A DNA stretch of 64,000 nt from a virus (Duplodnaviria > Heunggongvirae > Uroviricota > Caudoviricetes): the IMG/VR virus record IMGVR_UViG_3300032312_000788, positions 74,986 to 138,985 of that record. The stretch is one strand, 5' to 3'. The translations under genes were made by a program, and so were the position numbers. Under the pieces are notes generated by a model. The model saw only the letters and a list, made by a program, of their open reading frames with translations, was not told the DNA's origin and made no database searches. This document shows, piece by piece, positions 548 to 58,897 of the stretch. Position 1 is the first letter of the stretch. Each line of letters opens with the position of its first letter.

Positions 548-570
548 GTTTGTGTGCTTAAATACAAGGT

Positions 571-1305: not shown

Positions 1306-1313
1306 ATATTATA

Positions 1314-3551: not shown

Positions 3552-3559
3552 ATACTAAT

Positions 3560-4414: not shown

Positions 4415-4415
4415 T

Positions 4416-5186: not shown

Positions 5187-5188
5187 TT

Positions 5189-5587
5189 ATGATCGATCTA
5201 GGTAAATATCAAAACGAAGTTCCATCCTTATCCGCTTTAAGTATTAGGGATTATGAGAGAATTTTTAAAATTTTCAAACAATCAGAGGAAGATAAAAATT
5301 TTTATATATATAATATTTTAAATAGAATCGATTTCCCTACAATCGACAGTCAATTTTTAGAGTTTTATGATGTTGAAAGTAGAATGCCTCTAACGATAGC
5401 ATCTTATAAAATATATGGAGACATCAAATCTTGGTGGATATTGTATTTACTTAATAAGGATAAATTTGAGGGAGCACCATTTTATGTTAATGGTGGGACA
5501 CAACTCAAATACATAACTGACTCATTAAGAACAGCTATTTATCAAGATATTACTATACAGACTATATACAGTGGAAGACATTATTGA
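5189..5587 (+). CDS. hypothetical protein
   Basis: 132-aa ORF. Confidence 0.4.
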   Translation: MIDLGKYQNEVPSLSALSIRDYERIFKIFKQSEEDKNFYIYNILNRIDFPTIDSQFLEFYDVESRMPLTIASYKIYGDIKSWWILYLLNKDKFEGAPFYVNGGTQLKYITDSLRTAIYQDITIQTIYSGRHY

Positions 5588-16645: not shown

Positions 16646-18037
16646 ATGAACATAAAAGTATCAGAAAACGCAGATCCAAATTACTTGGCTACTGTAATAA
16701 GATGTCCAGAAATTCGAGATCATCCGGGGGCTGACCGTTTATCGATTACAGAAATTTTTGGTAATACTGTGGTGTTGGGAAAAGGATCTTATGTGAAGGA
16801 TGACCTATGTGTTTACTTCCCTGTAGAATCTTGTCTATCGCCTAAGTTCTTGTCATGGGCTAATTTATACGATAAGGAAATTCTTAATGCTGATGGTAAG
16901 ACTAAGGGATTCTTCTCGCAGAAAGGTAATCGTGTAAAGGCTGTTAAATTACGTGGAATTCCATCTCAAGGATTTTTGTATAAGATCGAGGAATTGGCCA
17001 AATATTACAACATTTCTCCTAGAATTTTTGCCTTGGGTGAATCTTTTGATACTGTTGGTGAGGATTTACTTGTAACCAAATACATCAGACCAGAGGTTAA
17101 GTCAAACAATGAGAATAATACACCCAAGAATAAAATTCCTAAGTGGATTAATACAACTTTGGGTATTTTCCCTCGTCCTATCAGAAATACTATTTTCCCT
17201 GTAGTTAAGTGGTACTATGGTCTATCTAAGGACGATGGTATCAAGTCTCTTATTGTGGATGGACAATTCAAATTCCATGGCAAAACTGAACACTTGGGTA
17301 AGAACATTTGGTTGATCAATCCAGAGGATGAGATTACGATCACATCCAAGGCTCATGGAACCAGTGCAATCTTCGGTAATATTTTGAGTAAGCGTAAGCT
17401 TAGTTTAATTGAAAATATTAAACTGAAATTGGGTGTTGATGTAAAGACAACTGAATACACACTAGTTTATAGTAGTAGAAGTATTCTGAAGAATCGAAGA
17501 GATGGGAAATACACTGATGATGTGTGGGGTATTGAAGCATCTAAACTAGAGGGTATTATTCCAGAAGGTTATACTTTATTCGGAGAAATTGTTGGTCATA
17601 CACCCGGAGGTAAAACCATTCAAAAGAATTATGATTATGGAGTTCCTCTCACAGAATCGGATTTTTGGGTATATCGTATCACAGAAACTACTACTGATGG
17701 TGTAGTTAGGGAACTATCATTCCCAGAGATTTCGAAGTTGTGTGAAGAATTGTGCATCAAAACAGTCCCTCATTATTATACTGGAAAAGCCGAAGATCTA
17801 TTTCCCGATATCAAAGTGAATAAAGATTGGTCTACCAATTGGTTACACGCTTTGAAGGAGAAGTATCTCGATAAGAAATGTGAATTTTGTAAATCGGGTG
17901 TTGTAAATGAAGGAGTTGTTGTTAAGATCAATTCCAAGGATACAAAACCAGTCTTTAAATTCAAGTCTCCTTTATTTAACATAGCCGAGGGGAAACTTAG
18001 AGATAGTGAGTATGAAGATATAGAAGAATTAAATTGA
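16646..18037 (+). CDS. ATP-dependent RNA ligase, Rnl2/Rnl5 clade, with about 230-aa N-terminal extension
   Basis: motif I TSKAHGTSAIFGNI matches T4 Rnl2 KIHGTNFSLI (KxHGT); nucleotidyltransferase domain begins about residue 235. Confidence 0.6.
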   Translation: MNIKVSENADPNYLATVIRCPEIRDHPGADRLSITEIFGNTVVLGKGSYVKDDLCVYFPVESCLSPKFLSWANLYDKEILNADGKTKGFFSQKGNRVKAVKLRGIPSQGFLYKIEELAKYYNISPRIFALGESFDTVGEDLLVTKYIRPEVKSNNENNTPKNKIPKWINTTLGIFPRPIRNTIFPVVKWYYGLSKDDGIKSLIVDGQFKFHGKTEHLGKNIWLINPEDEITITSKAHGTSAIFGNILSKRKLSLIENIKLKLGVDVKTTEYTLVYSSRSILKNRRDGKYTDDVWGIEASKLEGIIPEGYTLFGEIVGHTPGGKTIQKNYDYGVPLTESDFWVYRITETTTDGVVRELSFPEISKLCEELCIKTVPHYYTGKAEDLFPDIKVNKDWSTNWLHALKEKYLDKKCEFCKSGVVNEGVVVKINSKDTKPVFKFKSPLFNIAEGKLRDSEYEDIEELN

Positions 18038-19098
18038 ATCAATCATCATATGAAAAAATGAGTCCAATTGGACTAAATATTCATATGGATAAAATACAAT
18101 ATATTAAAGATAATTATGGAATATTATCAAATTCTGAAATATCAGACTCACTAGGATTGAGTGTAAATCAAATTAGGTCGTTGGTATACAAACATATTCC
18201 TTTTGATGATAGATATAGGAGGGGTAAGTCTCCACATTCTAAACCAAAAAGAAAATTTAACGTAAACGATGAAAGTTTTTCTGAATATAACTTAAATTCT
18301 TGCTATTGGGCTGGATTAATGGCTGCTGATGGTCATATTACAAAAAAATGGGATTCGTTTTCGATTGGGTTGAAGGAGTCTGATAGATCACATATAGAGA
18401 AATTTAAGGTGTGGTTGAATTTCGATGGTCCAATATGCTATAACAAAAATAAATACTTATATAAAGGTGTAGAGCAAATGAAATATTCTTATTCTATAAA
18501 AGTCACTTCTAAAAAGATAGTGGAAGATTTAAATAATAATTTTGGTGTTATTAGAAAAAAGAGTTTGATAATCAAGCCTCCAACAAAGATAAAAGATGAT
18601 CAGCATATAGATTCTTTTATAAAAGGATATATTGATGGAGATGGTTCTTTATCTTTGGGTAAAGATAAAACATCGAGATTATCTATTTTGGGAACTTATG
18701 ACATGATTATTTGGATAAATGAAAGGTTTGAAAATATACTCGGTCGTCATTTACCGAAACCCATAAAAAATGGAAATGTGTGGAAGATTGATCTAGGTAA
18801 TAAAACATCTAGAAAACTTTTACAAACCTTTTTTAATATAAAAACACCAGAATTGGAAAGAAAATGGACTCCAGAACTGAGAGATATAGTCTTTAATTAT
18901 AAAAAGAGTAGAAATTTAGATAATTATAAAAATATTATAAGAATGCAAAGCGAAGGAATGAATCAAACAGAAATAAGCAAACATATTGGTGTTACCTCAG
19001 CAGCAATATGTTGGATTATGAAACAGGATTGTTTTAAAATCTTGAAGGAGAGTGCCGCTAGAGATAATGGAGAAGCTGATATGGAGGAAGAAAGTTAA
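18034..19098 (+). CDS. LAGLIDADG homing endonuclease with C-terminal HTH
   Basis: two LAGLIDADG motifs (YWAGLMAADGHI and KGYIDGDGSL); C-terminal HTH (TEISKHIGVTSAAICWIMK). Confidence 0.7.
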   Translation: MNQSSYEKMSPIGLNIHMDKIQYIKDNYGILSNSEISDSLGLSVNQIRSLVYKHIPFDDRYRRGKSPHSKPKRKFNVNDESFSEYNLNSCYWAGLMAADGHITKKWDSFSIGLKESDRSHIEKFKVWLNFDGPICYNKNKYLYKGVEQMKYSYSIKVTSKKIVEDLNNNFGVIRKKSLIIKPPTKIKDDQHIDSFIKGYIDGDGSLSLGKDKTSRLSILGTYDMIIWINERFENILGRHLPKPIKNGNVWKIDLGNKTSRKLLQTFFNIKTPELERKWTPELRDIVFNYKKSRNLDNYKNIIRMQSEGMNQTEISKHIGVTSAAICWIMKQDCFKILKESAARDNGEADMEEES

Positions 19099-23517: not shown

Positions 23518-24495
23518 GTGGTATACACATTACAAGATAGGAAAAGTTGGCCAGTTACTACAGGCGTATATAAATTAACATTTATTAATTCAACATCTAA
23601 TAAAGTTTATATAGGAAGTTCTGCGAGTATTCGGAAAGGTAGTTATTACGGAATTAGAACTAGATGGGGTAAACACGCTGATTTACTTAAATTGGGAATA
23701 CATTATTCGAAAAAATTACAGTATGCATATAATAAGTATGGCGGAGAAAATCTTACATTCGAAATCATAGATTCTTGCGATGGTGGGAATATAATAGAGA
23801 TGGAGACGTTTTATATTACCAAATACGATAGTTGTAATAATGGTTACAATTCTAGACCAACCGCAGAAAGTAATGTCGGTTATAAAGTCCCCAAGTCTAT
23901 CATAGAAAAGACAAATATAACAAAAAGAAAGAAAAGGGAACCTTACGAAATCGATGTCCTTAAGCTTTATAAAGAAACCAAAAATGCTTTAGGTGTTTCG
24001 AGGGAATTGGGATTGAGTCATAGTGTAGTTTTAAAAATTTTAAAAGACTACAATATAATTCCAAAAAATGGAGATTATAAGCGGAAAAATGTCTACGCAT
24101 ACATGTTGGATGGGTGTTTTGTGGGAATATGGAAAGATGCTAGGAGTTGTGCTGATGCACTAAATCTTAAAAGTATTTGTAGTATATCTCATGTTGCTAT
24201 GGGTAAGAATATTTCATATAAAGGATATTTCTTTTCATATGAAAAGAAAACCAAAAGAGAGATAGTTGATTATATAAAAACTAGAATATGTGAAAGCAGA
24301 CAAAAAATGAGCAATCCAGATAAGTTGATACTTCGCAACATTGGTCAATATGATATGTCAGGGAACTTGATAAAGGTTTGGGAAACCTCAACAGAAATTA
24401 AAAAATATTTTGATATGTTCAATTTTTCCCCAATATCAGCGGTTTTTGCTGGAACAAAAAAACATTACAAAGGTTTCTTTTGGAAAAAAGAATAA
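23518..24495 (+). CDS. GIY-YIG homing endonuclease
   Basis: GVYKLTFINSTSNKVYIGSSASIRKG..RWGKH; long C-terminal DNA-binding region. Confidence 0.7.
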   Translation: MVYTLQDRKSWPVTTGVYKLTFINSTSNKVYIGSSASIRKGSYYGIRTRWGKHADLLKLGIHYSKKLQYAYNKYGGENLTFEIIDSCDGGNIIEMETFYITKYDSCNNGYNSRPTAESNVGYKVPKSIIEKTNITKRKKREPYEIDVLKLYKETKNALGVSRELGLSHSVVLKILKDYNIIPKNGDYKRKNVYAYMLDGCFVGIWKDARSCADALNLKSICSISHVAMGKNISYKGYFFSYEKKTKREIVDYIKTRICESRQKMSNPDKLILRNIGQYDMSGNLIKVWETSTEIKKYFDMFNFSPISAVFAGTKKHYKGFFWKKE

Positions 24496-33655: not shown

Positions 33656-34900
33656 ATGAAAAAAACAATAATGAAACTAATCGGAGTAATGACACTATTC
33701 GGTGCTGGTTATTTTATGATCGATGCTTGGCAGGGATCAGGGCTATCAACTGTTGTAGCTAATCAAATGGCTATCGATAATGTGAATGGTGGAAATACTG
33801 AATTCGTGACAATACATACCAATCTATTCCTTCTGCAATATGCGTCATTCATTTGGACACTAATTATGCTGGCTGTGGGAAGCGTTGTTCTACGTAAAGA
33901 TGTGAAGTCAATCTTTACACCCAAGGTTATGCCTTTGCTTATGGTTTGTTTGATTCCTTTTATGGGATCATGTAAACCGTATCAAAAACCTGTTTATAAG
34001 GAAATCAAAAACAATGAAACAGCGTTCGTGATTCCTCTAGAGGGTGATACAGGAAACCAAGCTAAGTTTGATTCTAAAGAAGCTCTAGAAAAGCATAAGG
34101 TGGCAATTAAACGTATTGAAATTCCTACTCGATGGGATCAACAAGGACGAGGAACTGGTAATGGTGTATATATTCCTACTGTAACAGTTATTGTGGTGGA
34201 TCGTTCTCCTGTCACTCGAAACTGGGAAGCGGGTGATAAAGGAAAGGATCAAGCGATCTGGGTAGAATCATCTGATAGTGTAGGATTTTCTATGGGATTC
34301 AACTGCACAGCATTCATTAAAGAAGAAGATACGGCAAATTTCCTATATTGGTATAGTTCTGGAAGTCTAGCAAGTCTTATGGATACAGAAGTCCGTGGTC
34401 GAGTTCAACAAATCGCTGCCGAGGAGAGTGCGAAATATCCACTAGATGAATTACGCGACAAGAAGAATGAGATTGCTGCATCAGTTCGTGCTGATATTAT
34501 TCCGTTCTTTGCTCAGAGAGGTATTACAATCACAACTGTAGGTATGTTTGGAGGTATGACATACGAAAACCCTAGCATTCAAGCTGCTATTGATAATGTG
34601 TTTGTGGCACAACAAGAGAAAAATGTTGCTCTAGCAAAGTATGATGCTCAAAAGAAGGAAAATGAACGTATTATTCTTGCATCACAAGGAACTGCTGAAC
34701 AACGTAAGATTGAATCAGAAGCAGAAGCTAAGGCTATCACTGCATTGACCCAAGCTGTTGCTCAAGGTGGTGAGAATTATCTACAACTTAAGTCTCTAGA
34801 AGTTCAACTGAAACAAACAGAAAAATGGAATGGTCAACTTCCTACTGTATCAAGTGGTGTAACACCATTGATCGATGCTGGAAGATTCCTAAGTAAATAA
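33656..34900 (+). CDS. SPFH (band-7/stomatin/HflKC-like) membrane protein
   Basis: N-terminal TM segments; C-terminal Ala/Glu-rich coiled coil (QQEKNVALAKYDAQKKENERI..ESEAEAKAITALT). Confidence 0.5.
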   Translation: MKKTIMKLIGVMTLFGAGYFMIDAWQGSGLSTVVANQMAIDNVNGGNTEFVTIHTNLFLLQYASFIWTLIMLAVGSVVLRKDVKSIFTPKVMPLLMVCLIPFMGSCKPYQKPVYKEIKNNETAFVIPLEGDTGNQAKFDSKEALEKHKVAIKRIEIPTRWDQQGRGTGNGVYIPTVTVIVVDRSPVTRNWEAGDKGKDQAIWVESSDSVGFSMGFNCTAFIKEEDTANFLYWYSSGSLASLMDTEVRGRVQQIAAEESAKYPLDELRDKKNEIAASVRADIIPFFAQRGITITTVGMFGGMTYENPSIQAAIDNVFVAQQEKNVALAKYDAQKKENERIILASQGTAEQRKIESEAEAKAITALTQAVAQGGENYLQLKSLEVQLKQTEKWNGQLPTVSSGVTPLIDAGRFLSK

Positions 34901-36966: not shown

Positions 36967-38832
36967 ATGAAACTTCAATTCAAAAATTCACCAACTATTG
37001 CATCTGGAGATATGTCAGTATCTAAGATGGGAGTAGCTGAAGGTAATGCCGATATGCTCGCATATTTCTTGCGTGACAGAACATATACTAACAAGGTTCT
37101 TGCTTGTATTCGTGAAACTATCACCAATGCTCAAGATGAACACAATGAACATCACATTGATAAAGCTGTCGAAATTAAGTTGGGGATGATCAATAATCAA
37201 TATGTGTGGAGTGTGAGAGACTTTGCTAAAGGTTTGAGTGAAGAATCCATCAGAACAGTTTATGGTATGTATGGTGGAAGTGATAAGCGTGAGAACAATA
37301 AACAAGTCGGTGGATTTGGTATCGGTGCTCTTAGTCCTTTCGCTGTATCTGATACCTTTTACGTAACCTCTTATCATGAAGGATTAAAAACTCAATACGC
37401 TTGTATTCTCGGTGCTGGTGACAATGGTGTATCTGTGGGAGAAATCTATCGTGTATCAGATCCAGAACCGACAACAGAATCGGGTTTGGAGGTATCACTA
37501 GATGTAAACAAAAACTACTACAATTTCTCTACAGAATCAGCATTTTTTGTGGAACGCTTTCTACCGAATGCAAATATTAAATTTACAGATCAATATGATA
37601 ATGAACATACTCCTATTCAACCTCTCCTAACTAAGGATATCGGGGACTATACCATCAACTTATACCAAAGCACATTTTGGACACATCCTGATTATGTAGC
37701 CATTCGTATGGGTGGGATTGTTTACAATATGCGATCCGATATCAAGGTCGTGAACCCTCTGGGTAAGATCGTGGTGGATGTTCCAATTGGTAAGTTGACT
37801 GTCCCAATTTCTCGTGAAAGTATTGAAGATACTCCAAACAATAAAAAAGTTCTGGAGGAAATTACTGCTGCTATAATCCAACTTAGTGATGAAGATCGAT
37901 CCAAGATTGTTACCCCAAAATTTGGGGAAGCGATTTTAGAAAATAAGCATAATTCATACTATGAAGGTGAGTGGTTCAGATACTCATTCTCTAATACTTT
38001 CCCAGATACTTATAAAATTCAAAAATGTCTAAACTATATCCACACTGGATATGGTCATAATAAAACGACAGGTAAGTATGTGGTATATCAGATTCCAGAT
38101 ATCAAGTCATACAAAGGTTGGGTGAAGCGTCTTGATCAATATATTGCTGGGTTGTTTCCAAATACACAAATTGTTTGGATGCTTAATAAAGGTGATATTG
38201 TATCAACTGATACCTTGGATGTTTCTGATGTAACATTTGTAGACGTTAAGAAACTTGGTTTACCTAAACTAGCCAAAGATCCTAATGAGGTTAGGTATGT
38301 TGTGTATTTCAATGGTTACAAGAGAAATTTCACTGCTGAAGAATTGGATGAACATGTAACTGATAAGTCTTTCAACGGTGTTGAAATCGTAGATGGATGG
38401 GAAAAATCTATTGATAGTATCTCATACCTTAGACAACGCGTTATTGGATTGACTTCTGAGTGTGGTGTTAATAATCCTTATTGGGTTTGTAACTCTAAGA
38501 AGATGAAAGAACAACTTCTTGAATTGGGTTGGTTTGAACTAAATTCTCCAGAATATACAAAACGCTGCGCTGAGATCAATGTCATTGAGCAAGCCAAAAG
38601 AGATATGGAGAATGCCGAATATCGTGTTAAAAGTGCGATGTTTAGAATCCATCCATCTCAAAGACTGATCAAGGTCATTGGTAAAAATCCATCGAAGTTG
38701 ACTAGATTGGATGTAGTCAAGAGTAAGATTTTGAAGGAAAATTCTTTCCGAGGTAGGGTTTTGTCTAGTATTGAAACATACAACACAAAAATTACACGAG
38801 AAGATCTGCGTAAAATCCTTACAACAAAATAA
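36967..38832 (+). CDS. GHKL-family ATPase (Hsp90/MutL/MORC-like)
   Basis: ETITNAQDE (N box), VRDFAKG (G1), GGFGIGALS (G2). Confidence 0.5.
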   Translation: MKLQFKNSPTIASGDMSVSKMGVAEGNADMLAYFLRDRTYTNKVLACIRETITNAQDEHNEHHIDKAVEIKLGMINNQYVWSVRDFAKGLSEESIRTVYGMYGGSDKRENNKQVGGFGIGALSPFAVSDTFYVTSYHEGLKTQYACILGAGDNGVSVGEIYRVSDPEPTTESGLEVSLDVNKNYYNFSTESAFFVERFLPNANIKFTDQYDNEHTPIQPLLTKDIGDYTINLYQSTFWTHPDYVAIRMGGIVYNMRSDIKVVNPLGKIVVDVPIGKLTVPISRESIEDTPNNKKVLEEITAAIIQLSDEDRSKIVTPKFGEAILENKHNSYYEGEWFRYSFSNTFPDTYKIQKCLNYIHTGYGHNKTTGKYVVYQIPDIKSYKGWVKRLDQYIAGLFPNTQIVWMLNKGDIVSTDTLDVSDVTFVDVKKLGLPKLAKDPNEVRYVVYFNGYKRNFTAEELDEHVTDKSFNGVEIVDGWEKSIDSISYLRQRVIGLTSECGVNNPYWVCNSKKMKEQLLELGWFELNSPEYTKRCAEINVIEQAKRDMENAEYRVKSAMFRIHPSQRLIKVIGKNPSKLTRLDVVKSKILKENSFRGRVLSSIETYNTKITREDLRKILTTK

Positions 38833-38934
38833 TTTTGGGAATGATGAGAAGCATGGTGACTTCCAAGCCTGATCGGGTTAGCAATTGGTTTGAATCCAAT
38901 ATCATTATGGGAGGACGCTCCCACCCAATTCAAT

Positions 38935-38962
38935 TTATAAAACACTAGAATATAATAACAAT
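38935..38962 (+). promoter_or_regulatory. conserved gene-start motif
   Basis: TTATAAAACACTAGAATATAATAACAAT then ATG 38963. Confidence 0.5.
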
Positions 38963-39205
38963 ATGAAGCAAGTCAAATCATACGAAACTAAGGACGGTAA
39001 ACTATTTATGGATCGTCTACAAGCTGAACAACATGAACTGATGCTTAATATCAGAGGATTTCTACAATCATCTGGTAAAGGTCAAGGTTCTCTATCCGCT
39101 ACTGATGTAGCGACATTCCTTATGATGAACCAAGATCCACTTTATGATATTCTTGGTAAGTATCGTAGGACTGTTGGTGGAATTAAATCAAATATGAACC
39201 GTTGA
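38963..39205 (+). CDS. hypothetical protein
   Basis: 80 aa. Confidence 0.3.
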   Translation: MKQVKSYETKDGKLFMDRLQAEQHELMLNIRGFLQSSGKGQGSLSATDVATFLMMNQDPLYDILGKYRRTVGGIKSNMNR

Positions 39206-39240
39206 CATTATAAAACACTAAGATATTCTAAACATAGATT

Positions 39241-40239
39241 ATGAAATACGCAATTAACACAGAAGCAATTATTCTTTTTATTAACGGAAAGAATATCCGC
39301 GTTGAGAAGACTGATCAACGATATCCAAAAATTATCAAAGTCTTTCAACTACCAAAAGATGAGCAAGAAGCAGAAGTTGAAGCTATCCTTAATAAGGTCG
39401 TCAAGGCTGATAAGGTTATCGAAGAAACTGAAGGATTTGATATCCAAGGTGAAGAAATCTTCTATAAGGGCGAGAAGCTTCCTAAAGCTTTCTCAGATAA
39501 GGTTTTGTCTATCATCGCTGATGGACTCCCATTGGAACACTTTGAGAAGTTCTGGGCTAACCTAGAGCAAAATCCAAGTGCTCAGAGTGTGAAGGAATTG
39601 ACAGAATTCCTAGACTATAAGGAACTACCTCTCACAGAAGATGGTTGCTTCCTTGCCTATAAGGGTGTCAATTATAACTATTTTTCGTCACATGGAAATT
39701 TGAATACTAAGGTCATTCAGGGTGAAGTTAATTCTGATGGACAAATTTATAATGGAGTAGGATCTGTTATTGAAGTTCGTCGTCGTGATGTTGATGATAA
39801 TCGTGAAAAACATTGTTCATTCGGTCTTCATGCTGGATCATTGGACTACGCAAGGGGATTTGCGTCTCGTATGGTAGTTGTTAAGATCAACCCCGCTGAT
39901 GTTGTATCAGTTCCATCTGATTGTAATTGTCAAAAGGTCCGTGTGTGTAAATATGAAGTTATGTCAGACTTTGTAGAAGAAATTACAGCACCCGTTGTTG
40001 ATGAGGATGGAGAAAATACAATTGTTCCCGATCTTGTTAAGGAATTGGATGCCTTTGTAGCGAAGGTTGATAATTATCTCACTAAGAAGAGGGATGAAGG
40101 TTACACAGAAGTAACTATTCGACAAATCCAAAATATTTTCTCTCCTAATTGGGCGACCAAGGAACAAGTATTGAATGCTCTTCAACAACTTGGAGAATAT
40201 TGGACGACTACTGATGGACTTACAACTGTTCATCTGTGA
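39241..40239 (+). CDS. hypothetical protein
   Basis: 332 aa. Confidence 0.4.
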   Translation: MKYAINTEAIILFINGKNIRVEKTDQRYPKIIKVFQLPKDEQEAEVEAILNKVVKADKVIEETEGFDIQGEEIFYKGEKLPKAFSDKVLSIIADGLPLEHFEKFWANLEQNPSAQSVKELTEFLDYKELPLTEDGCFLAYKGVNYNYFSSHGNLNTKVIQGEVNSDGQIYNGVGSVIEVRRRDVDDNREKHCSFGLHAGSLDYARGFASRMVVVKINPADVVSVPSDCNCQKVRVCKYEVMSDFVEEITAPVVDEDGENTIVPDLVKELDAFVAKVDNYLTKKRDEGYTEVTIRQIQNIFSPNWATKEQVLNALQQLGEYWTTTDGLTTVHL

Positions 40240-40260: not shown

Positions 40261-40593
40261 ATGCAAGACATTATCAAAACATACATTCGCAACACTGAAA
40301 CCAACCAACCGAAAGGAATTGCTGTTGCTATCAAACATGAAGGAAAAATCAATTATGGTTTTTCTCTATGTAATACTCGACTCGATAAGTGGGATAAGAA
40401 GCATGGTGAAAAAATTGCGATTGCTCGCGCTCTAGCTCCAGCTTATAAGCTTCCTGCTGTAAAAGATCGTGAAGCATCTGTTCTTGAAGCTTTTGAGAAC
40501 CTTGAAAAGCGTTGTATCAAATACTTCAAAGATCTTCCATATGAAGATGTTGCCCTCAAGGGTCATCTTGGTTGGGAAGATGTTAATGTATAA
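40261..40593 (+). CDS. hypothetical protein
   Basis: 110 aa. Confidence 0.35.
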   Translation: MQDIIKTYIRNTETNQPKGIAVAIKHEGKINYGFSLCNTRLDKWDKKHGEKIAIARALAPAYKLPAVKDREASVLEAFENLEKRCIKYFKDLPYEDVALKGHLGWEDVNV

Positions 40594-40600
40594 AACAATT

Positions 40601-40747
40601 TGAGTGTAATCCTCTGTGGCTACGAGGTTGGAGTAATTCGAAAACTCTGAGAGGGAATAATATATAAGGTATTCGGGAACGTTGAGAATGCCTTATATAC
40701 CCAAAATGGTCTATAGCTGTTAATCGTGGATTCGATTTCCACACACT
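40601..40747 (+). ncRNA. tRNA-like structured element (147 nt)
   Basis: 5' TGAGTGT pairs with 3' ACACTCA; D-arm-like cctc-tgtggctac-gagg; canonical T-arm gtgga-TTCGATT-tccac; no canonical anticodon arm. Confidence 0.25.
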
Positions 40748-41327
40748 CAATCATTTAAGTATGCTCTTTGGAGTGTTTATCATCGACATCAATACCGAAG
40801 TATCTATGGCCATAGCTTACTAGGAGAGTCTCCTATTTATATGAGGGAGGAATTTGATATACTTAAAAATTTTTAATGGGCGGCCCATTAGATTACATGT
40901 AAAAGGTGTTATATGTTGGCAAATATATAATCCATGTTTGACTTGGGAGTTAACCCGCTCACCTCTTTATGAATAAAAAAGATTGGTCAAATTATCAGGT
41001 AGATAATCCCAAATATGGTGTTAAGTTAGTTTCAGAACTAACAGAAGCACAAGCAAAGACAGAATTGTGTATAGCTATTGAACTAATAGAAAAACTATTG
41101 GGTTGTAGTTATCAGGCAATTGAGATAGCACAAAAGAAGAATTACATTGTATGAAAAAACCGACATTACCATCTAAGCAACACCCAGATCAAAAAATTCA
41201 AGAAGAATGGATGAAGTGGTTGAAAAGAGAGAAGTATACATACGTAAAATATCTTGAGTTTATGTTGTGGCGAGATGCTTATCTAAAACTGAATCCTCTC
41301 GATTAAACACTAGACTACACTACTTAT

Positions 41328-42104
41328 ATGAAAGACAATTTGGGCGACCGCTGTAAGAATTACGAAAGTATTTATGAACATTACTTTCTACCAAAGACAC
41401 CTATTATCGTAAGAGTTGATCAAAAGGCTGGACACACATGGACTAAGGGGTTGGAAAAACCATTCGATCCAGATTATGTAACTTGCATGTTTGAATCCGC
41501 TAAAGAAGTAGCCAAACAAATACAAGGATGTAAAGCTTTATATACTCAAAGCGATGAAGTAACATTTGTATTAACTGATGATGCTACTATTGATACTCAA
41601 CAATGGTTTGGTGGTAGGCAGAATAAGATTGAGAGTATTACTGCTGCAATGATGACAGCATATTTTAATCGTAATTGGGATATAAAAACATATAAATATG
41701 ATCTCTTTAGACCCCCAGCGGTTTTTGATGCCCGTGCATTTCAATGTCCTAAAGATGATGTCGCTAATGTCTTCCTATGGAGAGTAAAGGATTGGGAACG
41801 TAATAGTCTTAATATGTTCTGTGAGCAGTTCTTCTCTCATAAGGACCTAAAAGGTAAATGTCGTGTGGAAAGACATGAAATGCTTTATAGAATTGATCAC
41901 AATTGGGCTACAGAATGCACTGAGCAACAAAAGAATGGTTCGTGGTGGGCTTGGGATAAGATTGATAACTTCAATCTAACTAACTATAATGATATTGATA
42001 ACTACATCTTCCAAGATGGAATTGCTTATGTGATTTCAAAGAAACTACAAGCAGGAGAAGATCTGTTTCCCGGACATAATAACGATCCTTGCCAAGATTA
42101 TTGA
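41328..42104 (+). CDS. Thg1-like 3'-5' polymerase (tRNA-His guanylyltransferase family)
   Basis: IIVRVDQKAGHTWTKGLEKPFDPDYV..YTQSDEVTFVL parallels Thg1 [35 protein letters not shown]. Confidence 0.75.
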   Translation: MKDNLGDRCKNYESIYEHYFLPKTPIIVRVDQKAGHTWTKGLEKPFDPDYVTCMFESAKEVAKQIQGCKALYTQSDEVTFVLTDDATIDTQQWFGGRQNKIESITAAMMTAYFNRNWDIKTYKYDLFRPPAVFDARAFQCPKDDVANVFLWRVKDWERNSLNMFCEQFFSHKDLKGKCRVERHEMLYRIDHNWATECTEQQKNGSWWAWDKIDNFNLTNYNDIDNYIFQDGIAYVISKKLQAGEDLFPGHNNDPCQDY

Positions 42105-42129
42105 TAAAACACTAAGATATAATACCGAT
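42103..42129 (+). promoter_or_regulatory. conserved gene-start motif
   Basis: TGATAAAACACTAAGATATAATACCGAT then ATG 42130. Confidence 0.5.
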
Positions 42130-42431
42130 ATGAAACAATACACCGTGATTTGGGAAGATCGTTGGATTTCTGGGAGTCATCATCATTGCTTAACTAAGAA
42201 AACTTGGATCGAATGCTCAAATATTGAAGAAATTGTGGAATCCTTTTACGGAGACGTTGCTGTATATATCTTCGAAGGATTCCAATGCACTATCGGAGAA
42301 GAGTTTGATCCATCTAGGGTTGTTAATCAACTGACGAAAACTTTTTCAATTATAAATTAACTTGACTTCATAAAACACTAAGCTAAACTAACAACATGTT
42401 CGAATCATCCTACCTCCACATATATAAAAAC

Positions 42432-42458
42432 GGAGGTATAGCTCAGGTGGAAGAGCAG
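42432..42458 (+). other. tRNA 5'-half-like fragment (acceptor strand plus D-arm)
   Basis: GGAGGTA-TA-GCTC-AGGTGGAA-GAGC with no downstream anticodon or T arm; inside a 26-codon mini-ORF. Confidence 0.25.
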
Positions 42459-42493
42459 AGTATAAAAGTTTTCTGATAATAATTTTTGATAAT

Positions 42494-43177
42494 ATGGATA
42501 ATAAGAATAAGGTAGAGCTACTCGGATTTTACGGTAGTGATAAAATCATCGCATGTTCAGCGTGGACCAGCACAAGCAGAAATTTATCACCTGATAAAGA
42601 AGAACGTATTCCCAAGTTGATTAAAGATCTATGGGATAATGGACACGAAACACCATTTGAAAAAGGTATGGTTCATTTCTTAGTCGATACAGATATCGCT
42701 TCACATATCCATTTACTCAAGCATCGTATTTCCAGTATGAATGCTGAATCCGCAAGATATAAAGAACTTAAAGAAGACAAGTATTATCTTCCTGAAGATT
42801 GGATTGGTATTGAATGCTCTAGTTCAATCTGGGAAGAAGGTGATTGTGAGTATTGGATTGATGTATTGGAGCAATACACCAAACAAGGTAATAATTTATA
42901 TCACCGATGTCTTAAAGATCTTGAACCAGTCCTTGGTCGCAAAAGAGCAAAGGAATCTGCTAGATTCTTTAAAACATATAATTCACAAATCCAAGGCGAT
43001 GTTTCTTTCAATATGAGAAGCTTTGCAAATTTGTTGAAACTAAGATACTCGGATCATGCACAAAAGGAAATCAATGATATTGCCAAGGAAATGCTTGATC
43101 TTGTTATGGGTATTAAAGGTAAACCATTTAAACATACGCTAGAAGCGTGGGATATTAATTATAAAACACTAGAATAA
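42494..43177 (+). CDS. thyX: flavin-dependent thymidylate synthase
   Basis: HETPFEKGMVHFLV..LKHRISSMNAESARY = ThyX RHRxxSxNxxSxRY signature. Confidence 0.7.
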   Translation: MDNKNKVELLGFYGSDKIIACSAWTSTSRNLSPDKEERIPKLIKDLWDNGHETPFEKGMVHFLVDTDIASHIHLLKHRISSMNAESARYKELKEDKYYLPEDWIGIECSSSIWEEGDCEYWIDVLEQYTKQGNNLYHRCLKDLEPVLGRKRAKESARFFKTYNSQIQGDVSFNMRSFANLLKLRYSDHAQKEINDIAKEMLDLVMGIKGKPFKHTLEAWDINYKTLE

Positions 43178-43186
43178 AATAACACT
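43161..43186 (+). promoter_or_regulatory. conserved gene-start motif (identical 29-nt copy also at 43927..43952)
   Basis: ATAAAACACTAGAATAAAATAACACT then ATG 43187. Confidence 0.5.
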
Positions 43187-43648
43187 ATGAGCATGACGAT
43201 CAACAAGGCACTTAAAGAAAAAAATCGAATCGCAGGACGTATTTCCAAACTACAAACACAAGTAGTCAAATACAACCGCTACAAGAAGGATTCTACTGTA
43301 GAGTTTTCTACGAAAGAACTATTCAAAAGTCTCCAAGAGGAGTGGGCATATCTTATTGATATCAAGTCTAAGATTGCCAAGGCTAATGTTGGTATTTCCG
43401 ATAAGTTGGTTCAATTAACTGAAGCAAAAGCAGAACTATCATTCTGGAATAGTTTCGGTAATGTTGGACCAGCGAAAGAAACTATTCAAGAAAGCAAATT
43501 TATCGATGGTAAGTATGTATTTATTGATACTGTGAATGTTTCGGAGATTACCACAAAGGATGTTCAAACAAACATCAATCGTGTTCAAAAACTAATCGAG
43601 AATCTGCAAGATGAGATCGATGAGTATAACGCGACTACAAAGATTTAA
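43187..43648 (+). CDS. hypothetical coiled-coil protein
   Basis: 153 aa. Confidence 0.35.
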   Translation: MSMTINKALKEKNRIAGRISKLQTQVVKYNRYKKDSTVEFSTKELFKSLQEEWAYLIDIKSKIAKANVGISDKLVQLTEAKAELSFWNSFGNVGPAKETIQESKFIDGKYVFIDTVNVSEITTKDVQTNINRVQKLIENLQDEIDEYNATTKI

Positions 43649-43926
43649 ACAACTATAGCAACTTGTCCAGAAGGTTAGCTACGATTGACGAATCGTATGA
43701 ATCCTTGCTCCAATGTTGCACTTTTTCCGGGAGTAGATAACAATATTACAACAACACATCGTAGCCTTAAGAAGCTGCAACCAATATACTGTTAATGTTA
43801 ATGATAACGCTGGATTTTCGGATCGGGTTAAAACTCAAATCTTAAAACTTAGTTGATCAATCATTAAAATTTAATCGTTAAACCTTAGCTTTGTTGTTAT
43901 GGAGTTATCGAAACCGGAATCATTTT

Positions 43927-43952
43927 ATAAAACACTAGAATAAAATAACACT
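43927..43952 (+). promoter_or_regulatory. conserved gene-start motif (identical to 43161..43186)
   Basis: ATAAAACACTAGAATAAAATAACACT then ATG 43953. Confidence 0.5.
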
Positions 43953-44498
43953 ATGAAAACAGATTTCAATTGGGGTGACGATATCATCGATTCCCGCGAC
44001 ATCATTACTCGCCATGAAGAATTACAAGACGAGTATAATTCTTTAGTGGAAGCACTGGAAGAAGCTAAGGGAGATCTTGATGATTTTCTTCGAGAAAATG
44101 ATACTGATCCAGACAGTAAGGATGAGGATGATGATTCGGTTGCGTTTATTAGACGTAGACTTAATGAACTTCATGAAGTTGTCGAAGAAGCACAAGAAGC
44201 TCTAGATCAATTCAATCAGTCCTTTGATAAGGATGAACTTGATCTACTCACTGAAGTAATCTCTCAAGGTGAGGATTCACCTGATTGGTCTTATGGAGAA
44301 GGGTTGATCCACGAATCATACTTTACAGAATATGCAGAACAATTAGCCAATGATGTATGTGAATTTCCTAAAGAATTCCAATCAGGTCAATGGCCATTCA
44401 ATCATATGAAAATTGATTGGGAGTCTGCTGCTCAAGAACTTCAGTCAGATTACTTTGATATTTCTGCGGGTGGAGAAACCTATTATATCAGAGCATGA
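43953..44498 (+). CDS. highly acidic protein (possible DNA mimic)
   Basis: 181 aa, very D/E-rich. Confidence 0.4.
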   Translation: MKTDFNWGDDIIDSRDIITRHEELQDEYNSLVEALEEAKGDLDDFLRENDTDPDSKDEDDDSVAFIRRRLNELHEVVEEAQEALDQFNQSFDKDELDLLTEVISQGEDSPDWSYGEGLIHESYFTEYAEQLANDVCEFPKEFQSGQWPFNHMKIDWESAAQELQSDYFDISAGGETYYIRA

Positions 44499-57352: not shown

Positions 57353-58897
57353 ATGGAATTTAGTAAATATCAACAAGACGTTTTCGATTGGGTTATCAAT
57401 CCACAAAAGTTTCACGAATCCGCAAGGAATCTTATTGTGAAAGCTGTGGCTGGATCTGGTAAGAGTACAACTGCTCTCCAATCCGCAGTTTATATGAAAG
57501 GAGATATCATCTTTTTTTCTTTCAATAAGAAAATTCAAGCTCATCTTGAAAAGAAACTTGCATCCATGGGTTTGCCTAATGCTCGTGCTGCTACTTTTCA
57601 TAGTGAAGGCATGAAGAATCTTATCAAGTCGAAGGGTAAGGTTAAACTAGAAAACTCTAAGATTTATTATATTGTTGAGAAGTATTGTCAAACTCAAGAG
57701 TTGAATGCTGCTCGTCCTTTCATTCAAAAGCTTGTAGGGTTTGCTAAAGAGTATGCCTTTGGAGTTAAAGGTCAACGTTCTATCGATGATACTCAAGCAT
57801 GGATGGAAATCATTCAAACTCAAGATATTAGTTTGGATGCTGATTGTGACTTCGATGAAGTTATCGAAATTGCCAAGCAAGTTCTGAAGGAATCTAATCG
57901 TGACTTCCGTAATATCGATTTTGCGGATATGATTTATCTCCCTCTCATCTATGATATCGAGTGCATCAAATATGATTGGATCATTGTCGATGAGGCTCAA
58001 GATACTAATGTATCTCGCAAGCTTTTCATTGCTAAGGTTCTCAAGCCTAATGGTCGTTTGATCGCTATCGGTGATGAAAATCAGGCAATCTATGGATTCA
58101 CCGGAGCGGAAAACGATTCAATGAATCTTATCAAGGATATGTTTCAATGCTACGAACTTCCCCTTTCTGTCTGCTATCGTTGCGGAAAGAAGATTGTTGC
58201 AGAAGCTCAAAAGTATCAACCTCATATCGAAGCTTATGAGGGAAATGAGGATGGTGAAATCCTCTCCATCAAATATGATGATTTCCTTGATCAAGTTGAA
58301 ACGATGAAACTTTCCTCTAAGGATGGTATTATCTGCCGAAACAATGCACCTAATGTTGCACTTGCCTTTGCTCTTATTCGTAAAGGTATCGGATGCCGCA
58401 TCGAAGGTCGTGATATTGGACAAAATCTTATCACTCTTTGTAATAAGTGGAAGCGTGTCTCTGATCTTAATGAGTTCATCGAAAAGCTTAATGCTTTCTT
58501 TGAGAAAGAATTTGAGAAAGCTTCTAAAGCTAAGATGCAAATGCTTGAAGATAAACTTCAAACCATGATCATTCTTATTGAGCGTTGTCAATCTCTTGGT
58601 AAGAATGATGTTCAATCTCTCAAGAATCTCATCGAGGCGATGTTCACTGATGATGGTGATCCTAAGAACGCTGATCTCGTGACTCTCTCTTCTATTCATA
58701 AGTCTAAGGGTCTGGAGTTTGACAATACTTATCTTATCGGGAATGCACAACTCGTTCCAAGTAAGTATGCTGTGACTGAGGCGCAACAAATTCAGGAGCA
58801 AAATCTCCTATATGTATCAGTAACCCGCGCTCTTAAAAAGATGGTGAATGTTACCGATATTCCTACCCGTGGTGGTCGTAAGATCGAAGAAGAATAA
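57353..58897 (+). CDS. UvrD/PcrA-like SF1 helicase
   Basis: Walker A AVAGSGKSTTAL; motif II IIVDEAQDTN; motif VI-like SIHKSKGLEFDNTYLIG. Confidence 0.7.
   Translation: MEFSKYQQDVFDWVINPQKFHESARNLIVKAVAGSGKSTTALQSAVYMKGDIIFFSFNKKIQAHLEKKLASMGLPNARAATFHSEGMKNLIKSKGKVKLENSKIYYIVEKYCQTQELNAARPFIQKLVGFAKEYAFGVKGQRSIDDTQAWMEIIQTQDISLDADCDFDEVIEIAKQVLKESNRDFRNIDFADMIYLPLIYDIECIKYDWIIVDEAQDTNVSRKLFIAKVLKPNGRLIAIGDENQAIYGFTGAENDSMNLIKDMFQCYELPLSVCYRCGKKIVAEAQKYQPHIEAYEGNEDGEILSIKYDDFLDQVETMKLSSKDGIICRNNAPNVALAFALIRKGIGCRIEGRDIGQNLITLCNKWKRVSDLNEFIEKLNAFFEKEFEKASKAKMQMLEDKLQTMIILIERCQSLGKNDVQSLKNLIEAMFTDDGDPKNADLVTLSSIHKSKGLEFDNTYLIGNAQLVPSKYAVTEAQQIQEQNLLYVSVTRALKKMVNVTDIPTRGGRKIEEE

What the first reader, a model, noticed from the sequence alone, without database searches (positions are those of the whole stretch)
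41328..42480. Thg1-like 3'-5' polymerase next to a tRNA 5'-half-like fragment
ORF 41328..42104 aligns by eye with the Thg1 catalytic core (RVDxK..H, QSDEVTFVL). Thg1-like proteins repair tRNA 5' ends or add G-1 to tRNA-His. Thg1 homologues in phages are rare as far as I know. About 330 bp downstream (42432..42458) is a sequence matching a tRNA acceptor 5' strand plus D-arm (GGAGGTATAGCTCAGGTGGAAGAGC), with no anticodon or T arm following. It is embedded in a 26-codon mini-ORF that has its own start motif. Co-location of a 5'-end repair polymerase and a 5' tRNA fragment may be coincidental, or a relic of a tRNA gene.
Basis: partly seen in the sequence, partly recalled or inferred. Interest (0 to 1): 0.6.

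Follow-up and report, generated by a model that had tools for sequence, protein, structure and literature searches.

The report
Thg1-like gene beside decayed tRNA-mimic RNA
The phage gene is a real Thg1-like tRNA-repair enzyme, but the "tRNA half" next to it is the truncated leftover of a tRNA-shaped small RNA that, in related phages, belongs to a Ro60-like protein and RNA array this phage has deleted.

Summary
ORF 41328..42104 is a bacterial-type Thg1-like protein (Pfam PF04446, 99 bits; closest solved structure is the B. thuringiensis TLP). This enzyme is uncommon in phages but already annotated there (160 GenBank phage records, PHROG 4717).

The 25-nt tRNA-like string is real, but it is not a free 5' half. 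A T loop and the complementary acceptor strand (TACCTCC) lie directly upstream, giving the order T loop, closed 7-bp acceptor hairpin, D arm. That is a circularly permuted tRNA mimic of the YrlA/Y-RNA type.

Relatives that are 94% identical in DNA carry 141 bp more and a complete unit. More distant relatives have, between the Thg1-like gene and this unit, a 550-aa DUF2828/DUF7788 protein with a Ro60-like fold. This gene is followed by a 0.8-1.4 kb array of small stem RNAs with an invariant CAGCAA motif.

The window keeps only that gene's promoter, its first three codons (MFE) and the 3' two-thirds of the last RNA unit. The 26-codon mini-ORF is a deletion artefact. So the window holds a working enzyme gene next to a scar.

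The interesting biology is in the relatives. There, an apparently undescribed family of RNAs is linked to the Ro-like protein, and these RNAs resemble Dictyostelium Class I RNAs.

The parts
41305..41327 (+). Promoter-like start motif of the Thg1-like gene (AAACACTA, then a -10-like hexamer, then ATG)
   Evidence: AAACACTA occurs 48 times on the + strand and once on the - strand, each about 23 nt before an ATG.
41328..42104 (+). Thg1-like protein (bacterial-type TLP, 3'-5' nucleotidyltransferase), 258 aa
   Evidence: Pfam PF04446 99.4 bits. PHROG 4717 E 1.5e-69. PDB 4KGK (B. thuringiensis TLP) E 1.7e-40, against E 2.5e-9 for Candida Thg1. D31, D76 and E77 are present.
42130..42360 (+). 76-aa ORF of unknown function, specific to this lineage
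   Evidence: No Pfam or PHROG hit. It is found only in L001/L002/L008, at 89% identity.
42362..42389 (+). Orphaned promoter of the deleted Ro60-like (DUF7788) gene: TTGACT, 16-nt spacer, TAAACT, with AAACACTA at 42373..42380
   Evidence: Promoter scan. It aligns with the promoter of the DUF7788 gene in L187 (5039..5071). thyX has no AAACACTA motif of its own.
42396..42404 (+). ATGTTCGAA: the first three codons (MFE) of the deleted DUF7788 gene. The same 9 bases are the repeat at which the 141-bp deletion occurred, and they now supply the T loop.
   Evidence: L187 DUF7788 starts MFENKLKPEIV and the L001 remnant starts MFETKLKATPV. L001 has the repeat twice, 5099..5107 and 5252..5260, with 141 extra bp between them.
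42396..42476 (+). 26-codon mini-ORF, a fusion artefact and not a gene
   Evidence: It starts with the DUF7788 start codon and then reads through the RNA relic. L001 has a different 27-codon remnant at the same place.
42399..42410 (+). T loop TTCGAAT plus the 3' strand of the T stem (CATCC). Two of the five bases of the 5' strand were lost.
   Evidence: L001 has the full stem GGATG/CATCC. The window has ACATG/CATCC, leaving 3 bp.
42411..42438 (+). Closed acceptor-like hairpin: TACCTCC, 14-nt loop, GGAGGTA (7 bp)
   Evidence: MFE fold. Related units keep 7 bp with different sequences: TGCCTCC/GGAGGTA, TCTCCCA/TGGGAGG, TACCATC/GATGGTA. In IMG/VR hits the acceptor complementarity is bimodal.
42439..42456 (+). 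U8-A9 and the D arm (GCTC AGGTGGAA GAGC).
   Evidence: It aligns to the D arm of the YrlA model and of model R1.
42460..42480 (+). Orphaned 3' strand of the outer closing helix (GTAT aaaa GTTTTCT) followed by the unit-end motif GATAAT
   Evidence: In L001/L187 it pairs with AGAAAACATAC, which is deleted here. The CTGATAA end motif is shared by 28 units.
42494..43177 (+). ThyX (flavin-dependent thymidylate synthase). The relic is now its leader.
   Evidence: Pfam Thy1 E 1.1e-29.

Best explanation
Two things sit side by side.

(1) An intact gene for a bacterial-type Thg1-like protein (TLP). By homology, this enzyme adds nucleotides in the 3'-5' direction to the 5' end of tRNAs. It either rebuilds a truncated 5' acceptor strand using the 3' strand as template, or adds G-1 to tRNA-His.

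(2) A genomic scar. In related phages the Thg1-like gene is followed by a gene for a Ro60-like protein (DUF2828/DUF7788: an alpha-solenoid plus a vWA domain). After that comes a tandem array of small RNA genes. Each unit has a 7-10 bp terminal stem, an invariant CAGCAA motif next to the 5' strand, a variable middle and a CUGAUAA end. In some units the middle is a permuted tRNA mimic (variable hairpin, T arm, closed acceptor hairpin, D arm), as in YrlA-type Y RNAs.

In the lineage of this window a deletion of about 3.4 kb removed the Ro-like gene and most of the array, leaving its promoter, its first codons and the last tRNA-like unit. That is the state seen in L001. A second 141-bp deletion between two ATGTTCGAA repeats then removed the 5' third of that unit, which is the state in the window. 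What remains is probably transcribed from the orphaned promoter as the leader of thyX. It is most likely non-functional as a tRNA mimic.

Shown by computation: the enzyme family, the two deletions, the RNA architecture and its covariation, and the Ro60-like fold. Inferred: the enzyme's activity and substrates, binding of the RNAs by the Ro-like protein, and transcription of the relic.
For: TLP identity.

Cis-closed permuted tRNA shape.

First deletion state (L001):
- Window and L001/L002 are about 94% identical over 5.1 kb, except for 141 extra bp in L001 bounded by ATGTTCGAA repeats.
- The complete L001 unit folds without constraints into outer helix + V hairpin + T arm + 7-bp acceptor hairpin + D arm (-31.3 kcal/mol, z -2.2).
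- It scores 34.6 bits on Rfam YrlA (E 1.4e-5).
- It scores 57.9 bits on model R1, which was built only from elements flanking TROVE genes. The window copy scores 36.0.

Ancestral state:
- L186, L187, L188 and L191 have Thg1, small ORF(s), a 549-552 aa DUF7788 gene, then a noncoding array.
- The L187 tRNA-like unit is nearly identical to the L001 unit, although their Thg1 proteins have diverged (74% identity to the window protein for L187, 84% for L001).
- The L001 and window mini-ORFs start with the DUF7788 start (MFE[NT]KLK) behind the same promoter.

RNA array:
- 28 units have invariant C6, G8, C9, A10 and A11.
- The stem is 92% paired, 8 of 8 pairs show double changes, and 0 of 500 shuffles reach that.
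- Four loci not used for training all have 3-5 R2 hits right after the DUF7788 gene.
- 436 kb of control loci give 1 hit.

Ro-like protein:
- hhalign against phage Ro60 gives 97.4% probability, E 1.4e-11.
- The AF2 model (pLDDT 80.5) has as its three best PDB matches Thermus phage Ro60 9KOP (E 3e-7), Xenopus Ro 1YVR and human Ro60 9NEN.
- GenBank annotators call homologues 'Ro-like RNA binding protein'.

Absence from the window: no DUF7788 or TROVE homologue by tblastn, and no R2 hit.
Against: - The window is only 64 kb of a genome that is probably about 200 kb, so a Ro-like gene could sit elsewhere. The IMG/VR scans that failed to return the relatives' contigs used only a few peptide patterns.
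- No expression data exist. Binding of the RNAs by DUF7788 is inferred only from adjacency and from the Ro60 analogy.
- The retained part of the relic is well conserved against L001. Its acceptor hairpin pairs even better (A-U where L001 has G-U), so a residual function is not excluded.
- All YrlA scores are below Rfam's gathering score. E-values from my own models are rough.
- About 70 nt of L001 (5122..5190) between the gene remnant and the RNA unit match nothing in L187, so the exact deletion path is not fully reconstructed.
Confidence: 0.8

Rival explanations
1. The truncated element still works in cis. It could be a tRNA-like leader of the thyX mRNA, for example an RNase P cleavage site at 42431/42432 that trims the transcript made from the orphaned promoter. 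Or it could be a minimal acceptor/D-arm mimic.
For: thyX has no AAACACTA promoter of its own, and the nearest one is at 42373. The 7-bp acceptor hairpin is perfect, with A-U where L001 has G-U. The retained segment is about 95% identical to L001. M. smegmatis YrlA, which has a 7-bp acceptor stem, is cut by RNase P (PMC4201824).
Against: It has lost the 5' strand of the outer helix, the V hairpin and 2 of 5 T-stem pairs. Its fold is no better than shuffles (z -1.33, 22 of 200). L190 and L192 show that related phages can lack any such element downstream of Thg1.
Confidence: 0.13
2. It is a relic of an ordinary tRNA gene, or of two tandem tRNA genes (the 3' end of one followed by the 5' end of the next).
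For: The T loop, acceptor strands and D arm are all canonical tRNA sequence. Dimeric tRNAs are a known false positive for YrlA searches (PMC4201824).
Against: The two acceptor strands are complementary to each other (7 of 7), whereas tandem-tRNA matches peak at 3 of 7. The complete unit in L001/L187 has an outer closing helix and the CAGCAA motif in place of an anticodon arm. Equivalent units with different, covarying stems recur next to DUF7788 genes. ARAGORN finds no tRNA in any of them.
Confidence: 0.04
3. It is a split-tRNA 5' half or a dedicated substrate or guide for the neighbouring Thg1-like enzyme. The fragment would pair in trans with a 3' half, or be extended by the enzyme.
For: Physical proximity only. 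TLPs act on tRNA acceptor stems (established knowledge of the family).
Against: The partner strand is in cis, 14 nt upstream, so no trans partner is needed. The string is unique in the window. Phages with Thg1 homologues such as Rhodococcus phage Weasels2 and loci L190 and L192 have no such element nearby. The RNA units track the Ro-like gene rather than Thg1: Leptolyngbya phage Lbo-JY46 has the array without Thg1.
Confidence: 0.03

Closest known systems
Bacterial Thg1-like proteins (TLPs), e.g. Bacillus thuringiensis TLP (PDB 4KGK/4KGM)
   Same: Same Pfam family. 191 residues align at E 1.7e-40. The catalytic carboxylates are conserved, and the eukaryotic HINNLYN-type motif is absent (WERNSL here, SKNSIS in BtTLP).
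   Different: It is phage-encoded and has a C-terminal tail of about 45 aa beyond the PHROG profile. Activity and substrates are untested. I found no experimental paper on a phage TLP in the library.
YrlA-type bacterial and phage Y RNAs bound by Ro60/Rsr (Rfam RF02553; Chen et al. 2014, PMC4201824)
   Same: A permuted tRNA mimic with V hairpin, T arm, closed acceptor-like stem and D arm, held by a helix formed from the RNA's two ends. It is encoded next to a Ro60-type protein, often in several copies.
   Different: The partner protein in the relatives is DUF2828/DUF7788 rather than a Pfam TROVE protein. The 5' motif is CAGCAA(AUA), not GNCGAAN0-1G or the GUUACUUCG of TROVE-linked phage elements. 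Scores are below Rfam's gathering score. In the window itself the unit is truncated and the protein gene is gone.
Thermus phage phiLo Ro60 with Yrl1/Yrl2 (PDB 9KOP; PMC12135203)
   Same: A phage-encoded Ro60-fold protein with adjacent small stem-bulge RNAs. It is the best structural match of the DUF7788 model.
   Different: 14% sequence identity. phiLo has two RNAs with a CGAA motif, whereas here there are arrays of 4-8 units with a CAGCAA motif. phiLo has no Thg1 neighbour as far as that paper reports.
Dictyostelium Class I RNAs (Rfam RF01414; Kjellin et al. 2021, PMC7919456)
   Same: A short terminal stem with covariation. An 11-nt motif (CCUUACAGCAA) adjacent to the 5' strand, with C6, C9, A10 and A11 invariant. 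An AAG start and a CUG end. A variable middle. Many gene copies. Phage units score up to 39.3 bits against a gathering score of 41.5.
   Different: Class I RNAs are reported only from dictyostelid amoebae, where they are dispersed genes. Their known binder is the RRM protein Rnp1A. The phage units are tandem, lie next to a Ro-like gene, and some carry tRNA-like inserts. Whether the resemblance is homology or convergence is not resolved here.

Membership tests
Thg1 / Thg1-like protein (PF04446) | Profile match above the curated cut-off over the catalytic domain | tested here: met
   99.4 bits against a cut-off of 29.2, residues 7-141 covering profile positions 2-130 of 130. PHROG 4717 E 1.5e-69.
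Thg1 / Thg1-like protein (PF04446) | Catalytic carboxylates (human Thg1 D29, D76, E77) | tested here: met
   D31 in RVDQ, and D76 and E77 in QSDE, aligned to the same columns of 4KGK and 3WBZ.
Bacterial-type TLP subgroup (as opposed to eukaryotic Thg1) | Closer to TLPs than to eukaryotic Thg1, and no HINNLYN-type motif | tested here: met
   4KGK E 1.7e-40, Candida Thg1 2.5e-9, human 4.2e-5. The query has WERNSL where Candida has CHINNL.
Thg1 / Thg1-like protein (PF04446) | 3'-5' nucleotide addition to tRNA 5' ends | not testable with these tools
   Needs an enzyme assay.
tRNA gene | Cloverleaf with an anticodon arm, detected by tRNA finders | tested here: not met
   ARAGORN finds only tRNA-Met at 53466. 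Rfam gives no tRNA hit in 40500..44000 at E up to 10.
YrlA Y RNA (RF02553) | Score at or above the gathering score (69 bits) | tested here: not met
   Window 17.6 bits (E 4), L001 34.6 bits (E 1.4e-5). However, elements flanking a real TROVE gene in L003/L004 also reach only 36-39 bits.
YrlA Y RNA (RF02553) | T arm, closed acceptor-like stem and D arm in that order, enclosed by a helix of the 5' and 3' ends | tested here: inconclusive
   Fully met in L001/L187. In the window only the T loop, the acceptor hairpin, the D arm and the 3' strand of the outer helix survive.
YrlA Y RNA (RF02553) | Ro60-binding 5' motif (GNCGAAN0-1G; GUUACUUCG in TROVE-linked phage elements) | tested here: not met
   L001 has ACAGCAAAUAC at that place. 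The region is deleted in the window.
YrlA Y RNA (RF02553) | Encoded next to a Ro60 (TROVE) gene | tested here: not met
   No TROVE or DUF7788 homologue in the window or in L001/L007. Relatives have a Ro60-fold DUF7788 gene there instead.
Dictyostelium Class I RNA (RF01414), considered for the related units | Score at or above the gathering score (41.5 bits) | tested here: not met
   Best 39.3 bits (L189 6734..6791). Others score 26-33 bits. No hit in the window.
Dictyostelium Class I RNA (RF01414), considered for the related units | Terminal stem with compensatory changes plus an 11-nt motif with invariant C6, C9, A10 and A11, an AAG start and a CUG end | tested here: met
   Met for the units in relatives. 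T3 is present in only 13 of 28 units. Not met in the window, where the 5' half is deleted.
Ro60 (for the DUF7788 protein of relatives) | Pfam TROVE domain hit | tested here: not met
   These proteins hit DUF2828/DUF7788, not TROVE.
Ro60 (for the DUF7788 protein of relatives) | Alpha-solenoid plus vWA fold with a MIDAS DxSxS motif | tested here: met
   The Foldseek top 3 are Ro60 structures aligned over the full length. hhalign 97.4%. D348, S350, G351, S352 and M353 are conserved in the alignments.

The most novel reading that the evidence does not exclude
The stem RNAs with the CAGCAA motif would be the cognate Y-RNA-like partners of the Ro60-fold DUF2828/DUF7788 proteins. That protein family is found in at least 374 GenBank phage records, and its Pfam family is also reported from eukaryotes. 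Under this reading the RNAs are homologous to Dictyostelium Class I RNAs, whose function and origin have been open since 2004 and which are described as unique to dictyostelids. The units with a tRNA-like middle, of which this window holds a truncated copy, could tether tRNA enzymes such as the neighbouring Thg1-like protein to the RNP, as Y RNA tethers PNPase to Ro60.
Probability: 0.25. Interest if true: 0.85.

Novelty: new variant of a known kind. Interest (0 to 1): 0.55.

Why it matters
In the window itself, the result removes a tempting but wrong reading (a split tRNA serving a repair polymerase). It also documents stepwise decay of an RNA-protein module: intact, then protein lost, then RNA truncated.

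The larger value is the lead it gives. Phage DUF2828/DUF7788 genes are currently annotated vaguely as "RNA-binding" or "Ro-like". They are flanked by unannotated arrays of small structured RNAs with strong covariation, including in cultured phages (Leptolyngbya Lbo-JY46, Enterococcus EFDG1, Listeria LP-048, Citrobacter Moogle, Mycobacterium Moostard). This makes a Ro-like RNP directly testable in tractable systems.

The module also sits next to tRNA-repair genes (Thg1-like here, RtcB in LP-048). This fits the view that Ro-type RNPs are platforms for RNA repair during phage-host conflict.

If the resemblance to Dictyostelium Class I RNAs reflects homology, it would give those RNAs a candidate protein partner and an evolutionary origin.

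Tried and rejected
- blastn of the region against GenBank phages found no match, so the phage has no close cultured relative.
- A specific DNA pattern for the element found nothing in metagenome contigs.
- I first expected a classical Ro60 (TROVE) partner. None was found in the window among ORFs of 400 aa or more or by tblastn. An IMG/VR Ro60 scan (57 loci) did not return the relatives' contigs. These loci did serve as seeds and controls.
- Leptolyngbya phage Lbo-JY46: the 260-aa ORF upstream of its DUF7788 gene is not Thg1, so the Thg1 linkage is specific to this clade.
- The permuted or two-piece tmRNA reading is rejected. ARAGORN and Rfam find no tmRNA, and there is a full D stem and no tag reading frame.
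- The permuted true-tRNA reading is rejected, because an outer helix with the CAGCAA motif replaces the anticodon loop.
It was solved by first retrieving the same protein through the search for homologous proteins.
- The 76-aa ORF between Thg1 and the relic has no homologue outside L001/L002/L008.
- I could not test whether Dictyostelium encodes a DUF2828 protein. The 2011 paper on Class I RNA-binding proteins is not in the library.
Full report
**1. Observation**

ORF 41328..42104 (258 aa) is present. It matches Pfam Thg1 (PF04446) at 99.4 bits, E 1.9e-28, over the whole 130-position profile. It matches PHROG 4717, 'tRNA-His guanylyltransferase', at E 1.5e-69.

Among solved structures, the best match is the Bacillus thuringiensis Thg1-like protein 4KGK (E 1.7e-40, 191 aligned residues). 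Eukaryotic Thg1 enzymes match far more weakly (Candida 2.5e-9, human 4.2e-5). The catalytic carboxylates are present as D31, D76 and E77. The eukaryotic CHINNL segment reads WERNSL here. It is therefore a bacterial-type TLP.

tblastn finds homologues in 160 of 50,697 GenBank phage records, many already annotated. A survey of jumbo phages lists Thg1 as sporadically present (PMC7824862). I found no experimental study of a phage TLP.

The string GGAGGTATAGCTCAGGTGGAAGAGC lies at 42432..42456 and is unique in the window. No tRNA is called there. The 26-codon mini-ORF 42396..42476 exists.

**2.

Directly upstream lie a T loop (TTCGAAT, 42399..42405), the 3' strand of a T stem (CATCC) and TACCTCC (42411..42417), which is the exact complement of GGAGGTA.

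The order is therefore T loop, a 7-bp acceptor hairpin closed by a 14-nt loop, then the D arm. This is a circularly permuted tRNA shape. Rfam's only relevant hit is a weak one to YrlA, the tRNA-mimicking Y RNA (17.6 bits, E 4).

**3. Close relatives show the window copy is truncated**

Two IMG/VR contigs (L001, L002) encode a Thg1 protein that is 84% identical. They are about 94% identical to the window in DNA over 5.1 kb.

At the element they carry 141 extra bp, bounded by a direct repeat ATGTTCGAA that occurs once in the window.

With those bases the T stem is complete (GGATG/CATCC). The unconstrained MFE fold gives an outer helix (AGAAAACAUAC / GUAU-aaac-GUUUUCU), a small V hairpin, the T arm, the 7-bp acceptor hairpin and the D arm (-31.3 kcal/mol, z -2.2).

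This complete unit scores 34.6 bits on YrlA (E 1.4e-5).

The window version folds no better than shuffles (z -1.33).

**4. The shape is a recurrent class, not a chance pair of tRNA pieces**

I scanned IMG/VR for a T loop followed 24-50 nt later by a D arm. The complementarity between the two acceptor strands in the hits is bimodal. One peak is at 3 of 7, which corresponds to ordinary tandem tRNAs. A second peak is at 7 of 7 (18 hits) with many different stem sequences.

In L003 and L004 two such elements flank a 542-aa protein with TROVE and Ro60-vWA domains. Yet these elements score only 36-39 bits on Rfam YrlA. Rfam's gathering score is therefore too strict for phage variants.

A covariance model built only from these TROVE-flanking elements (R1) scores L001 at 57.9 bits and the window at 36.0 bits.

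TROVE-linked elements carry a conserved 5' GUUACUUCG. L001 has ACAGCAAAUAC at that position instead.

**5. More distant relatives reveal the missing partner**

Thg1 homologues of 61-86% identity are numerous in metagenomes.

In L186, L187, L188 and L191 the Thg1-like gene is followed, after one to three small ORFs, by a 549-552 aa protein that hits Pfam DUF7788/DUF2828. After that protein comes 0.8-1.4 kb without ORFs.

R1 finds the tRNA-like unit at the end of that stretch. The L187 copy is almost identical to L001's, even though the Thg1 proteins have diverged: 74% identity to the window protein for L187 and 84% for L001.

The DUF7788 gene of L187 starts MFENKLKPEIV behind a TTGAC...TAAACT promoter. 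The L001 'mini-ORF' starts MFETKLKATPV behind the same promoter, and the window's starts MFE.

The series is therefore:
- Intact module (L187-like).
- A deletion of about 3.4 kb that removed the Ro-like gene, a homing-endonuclease ORF, another ORF and most of the noncoding stretch (L001).
- A further 141-bp deletion into the last RNA unit (window).

The window has no DUF7788 or TROVE homologue. Scans of IMG/VR did not return the relatives' contigs, although those scans are pattern-limited.

Loci L190 and L192 have Thg1 but no Ro-like gene, and no element at all. L193 has a TROVE protein with a GUUACUUCA-type element near its Thg1 gene.

**6. The protein is Ro60-like**

Profile-profile comparison of DUF7788 proteins with phage Ro60 proteins gives 97.4% probability, E 1.4e-11, over the end of TROVE plus the vWA domain.

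An AlphaFold2 model (pLDDT 80.5, pTM 0.78) has three best PDB matches, all aligned over the full length: Thermus phage phiLo Ro60 (9KOP, E 3e-7), Xenopus Ro (1YVR) and human Ro60 (9NEN).

Homologues occur in 374 GenBank phage records. They are annotated DUF2828, 'RNA-binding protein' or 'Ro-like RNA binding protein'.

**7. The noncoding stretch is an array of small RNA genes**

Each unit reads AAG, a 7-10 bp stem strand, (A)CAGCAA(AUA), a variable middle of 30-160 nt, the complementary strand, then CUGAUAA.

In 28 units, C6, G8, C9, A10 and A11 of the motif are invariant.

On 13 short units the stem is 92% paired, all 8 pairs show changes on both sides, and 0 of 500 shuffles reach the observed values. 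Sliding the partner columns drops pairing to 21-36%.

A model of the short units (R2) shows the following:
- It finds 14 further units right after the DUF7788 gene in four loci not used for training.
- It finds units in the cultured Leptolyngbya phage Lbo-JY46, whose protein is 45.6% identical to the L187 DUF7788 protein and which has no Thg1 nearby.
- It gives weaker hits beside DUF2828 genes of Citrobacter phage Moogle, Listeria phage LP-048 and Enterococcus phage EFDG1.
- It gives one hit in 436 kb of control loci, including 57 TROVE loci, and none in the window.

R1 finds tRNA-like units beside the DUF2828 genes of EFDG1, Mycobacterium phage Moostard and Moogle.

The tRNA-like units of this clade keep their T and acceptor stems with different sequences.

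**8. An unexpected resemblance**

Rfam's Dictyostelium Class I RNA model (RF01414) hits the short units at up to 39.3 bits against a gathering score of 41.5. The E-value is 4e-6 in the local search and 2.7e-4 in 29 kb. An earlier hit lay next to the DUF2828 gene of L005.

The model consensus, GaUcuCCUUACAGCAA...GagAuCUG, has the same terminal stem, the same motif in the same place and the same 3' end.

Kjellin et al. describe Class I RNAs as starting with AAG and ending with CUGU, with T3, C6, C9, A10 and A11 nearly invariant. They also describe them as unique to dictyostelids (PMC7919456).

I could not test whether this is homology or convergence, nor whether dictyostelids have a DUF2828 protein.

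**9. How it most likely works**

Shown by computation: the window encodes an intact TLP, and next to it the scar of a Ro-like RNP module.

Inferred from the family: the TLP repairs 5'-truncated tRNAs by templated 3'-5' addition, or supplies G-1 to a phage tRNA-His. In relative L193 a tRNA-His(GUG) with C at -1 lies 2.5 kb from the Thg1 gene.

Inferred by analogy with Ro60/Y RNA (PMC4201824, PMC12135203, PMC7824862): in relatives the DUF7788 ring protein binds the stem-plus-CAGCAA module of each small RNA, and the variable middles, some of them tRNA-like, recruit other factors. The recurrent placement beside Thg1 here and beside RtcB in LP-048 fits an RNA-repair context.

In the window the relic has lost the presumed protein-binding half. 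It is probably just the leader of thyX, which has no promoter motif of its own. A residual cis role is the main rival, and I give it about 0.13.

**10. Verdict**

The window's own content is a known kind of enzyme plus a pseudogene-like remnant. The family it points to, Ro-fold DUF7788 proteins with arrays of CAGCAA-motif RNAs, appears to be an undescribed variant of Ro60/Y-RNA systems.

Interest is 0.55. That is modest for the window itself and higher for the lead.

Noticed in passing
window, whole + strand (e.g. 41305, 42107, 42373, 43164): AAACACTA occurs 48 times on the + strand and once on the - strand. It is nearly always about 23 nt before an ATG, with a -10-like TAnAAT in between and only 5-8 nt from that hexamer to the ATG. 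This looks like a gene-by-gene promoter producing nearly leaderless mRNAs.
   Followed up: partly
window 21344, 45206, 57306, 61634, 62271: Copies of the AAACACTA motif with no ATG at the usual distance. They may be promoters of noncoding RNAs.
   Followed up: no
window 38837..38910 (L001 1474..1545): A tRNA-like sequence between the 621-aa ORF and the next gene. ARAGORN calls it tRNA-Ile(GAT) in L001 but not in the window, where the T loop reads TTTGAAT instead of TTCGAAT. Its D region is odd.
   Followed up: partly
L001/L002 5359..6134 (corresponds to window 42504/42539 inside thyX): The relatives' thyX is interrupted after about 9 codons by an insert of about 775 bp that the window lacks. 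It is probably an intron or a homing-endonuclease element.
   Followed up: no
window 16646..19098, 23518..24495: An RNA ligase (PF09414 plus the PHA02142 OB domain) is followed directly by a LAGLIDADG-type ORF. A further I-HmuI-like endonuclease ORF lies at 23518..24495. So the phage has other RNA-repair and mobile-element genes.
   Followed up: no
window 33656..34900, 36967..40239, 57353..58897: An SPFH/Band-7 protein. A 621-aa ORF with no Pfam hit, followed by an RIIB-like protein (39241..40239). A UvrD-like helicase.
   Followed up: no
L193 266..388, 462..1772, 2423..2498, 5001..5690: A relative with Thg1 (61% identity) has a TROVE protein with a YrlA-like RNA just upstream. It also has a tRNA-His(GUG) whose -1 base is C with A73, so G-1 is not genome-encoded. 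This is relevant to what the Thg1-like enzyme might do.
   Followed up: partly
L005 6232..6558 (-), 3454..4926 (-), 5016..5132 (-): A 9.7-kb viral contig carries a permuted alpha-type tmRNA (142 bits) next to a DUF2828/DUF7788 gene, a tRNA-like element and a Class I-like hit.
   Followed up: no
L194-L198 (Bacillus phage Skywalker, Enterococcus EFDG1, Citrobacter Moogle, Listeria LP-048, Mycobacterium Moostard): In cultured phages the DUF2828 gene sits beside tRNA arrays, with unannotated gaps of 400-700 nt. In EFDG1, Moogle, LP-048 and Moostard these neighbourhoods contain hits to my tRNA-like (R1) and stem-motif (R2) models; in Skywalker the only (weak) R1 hits lie inside the tRNA array. LP-048 also has an RtcB ligase 1.3 kb away.
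   Followed up: partly
L001 5122..5190: About 70 nt between the remnant of the DUF7788 start and the last RNA unit match nothing in L187. The origin of this segment is unknown.
   Followed up: no
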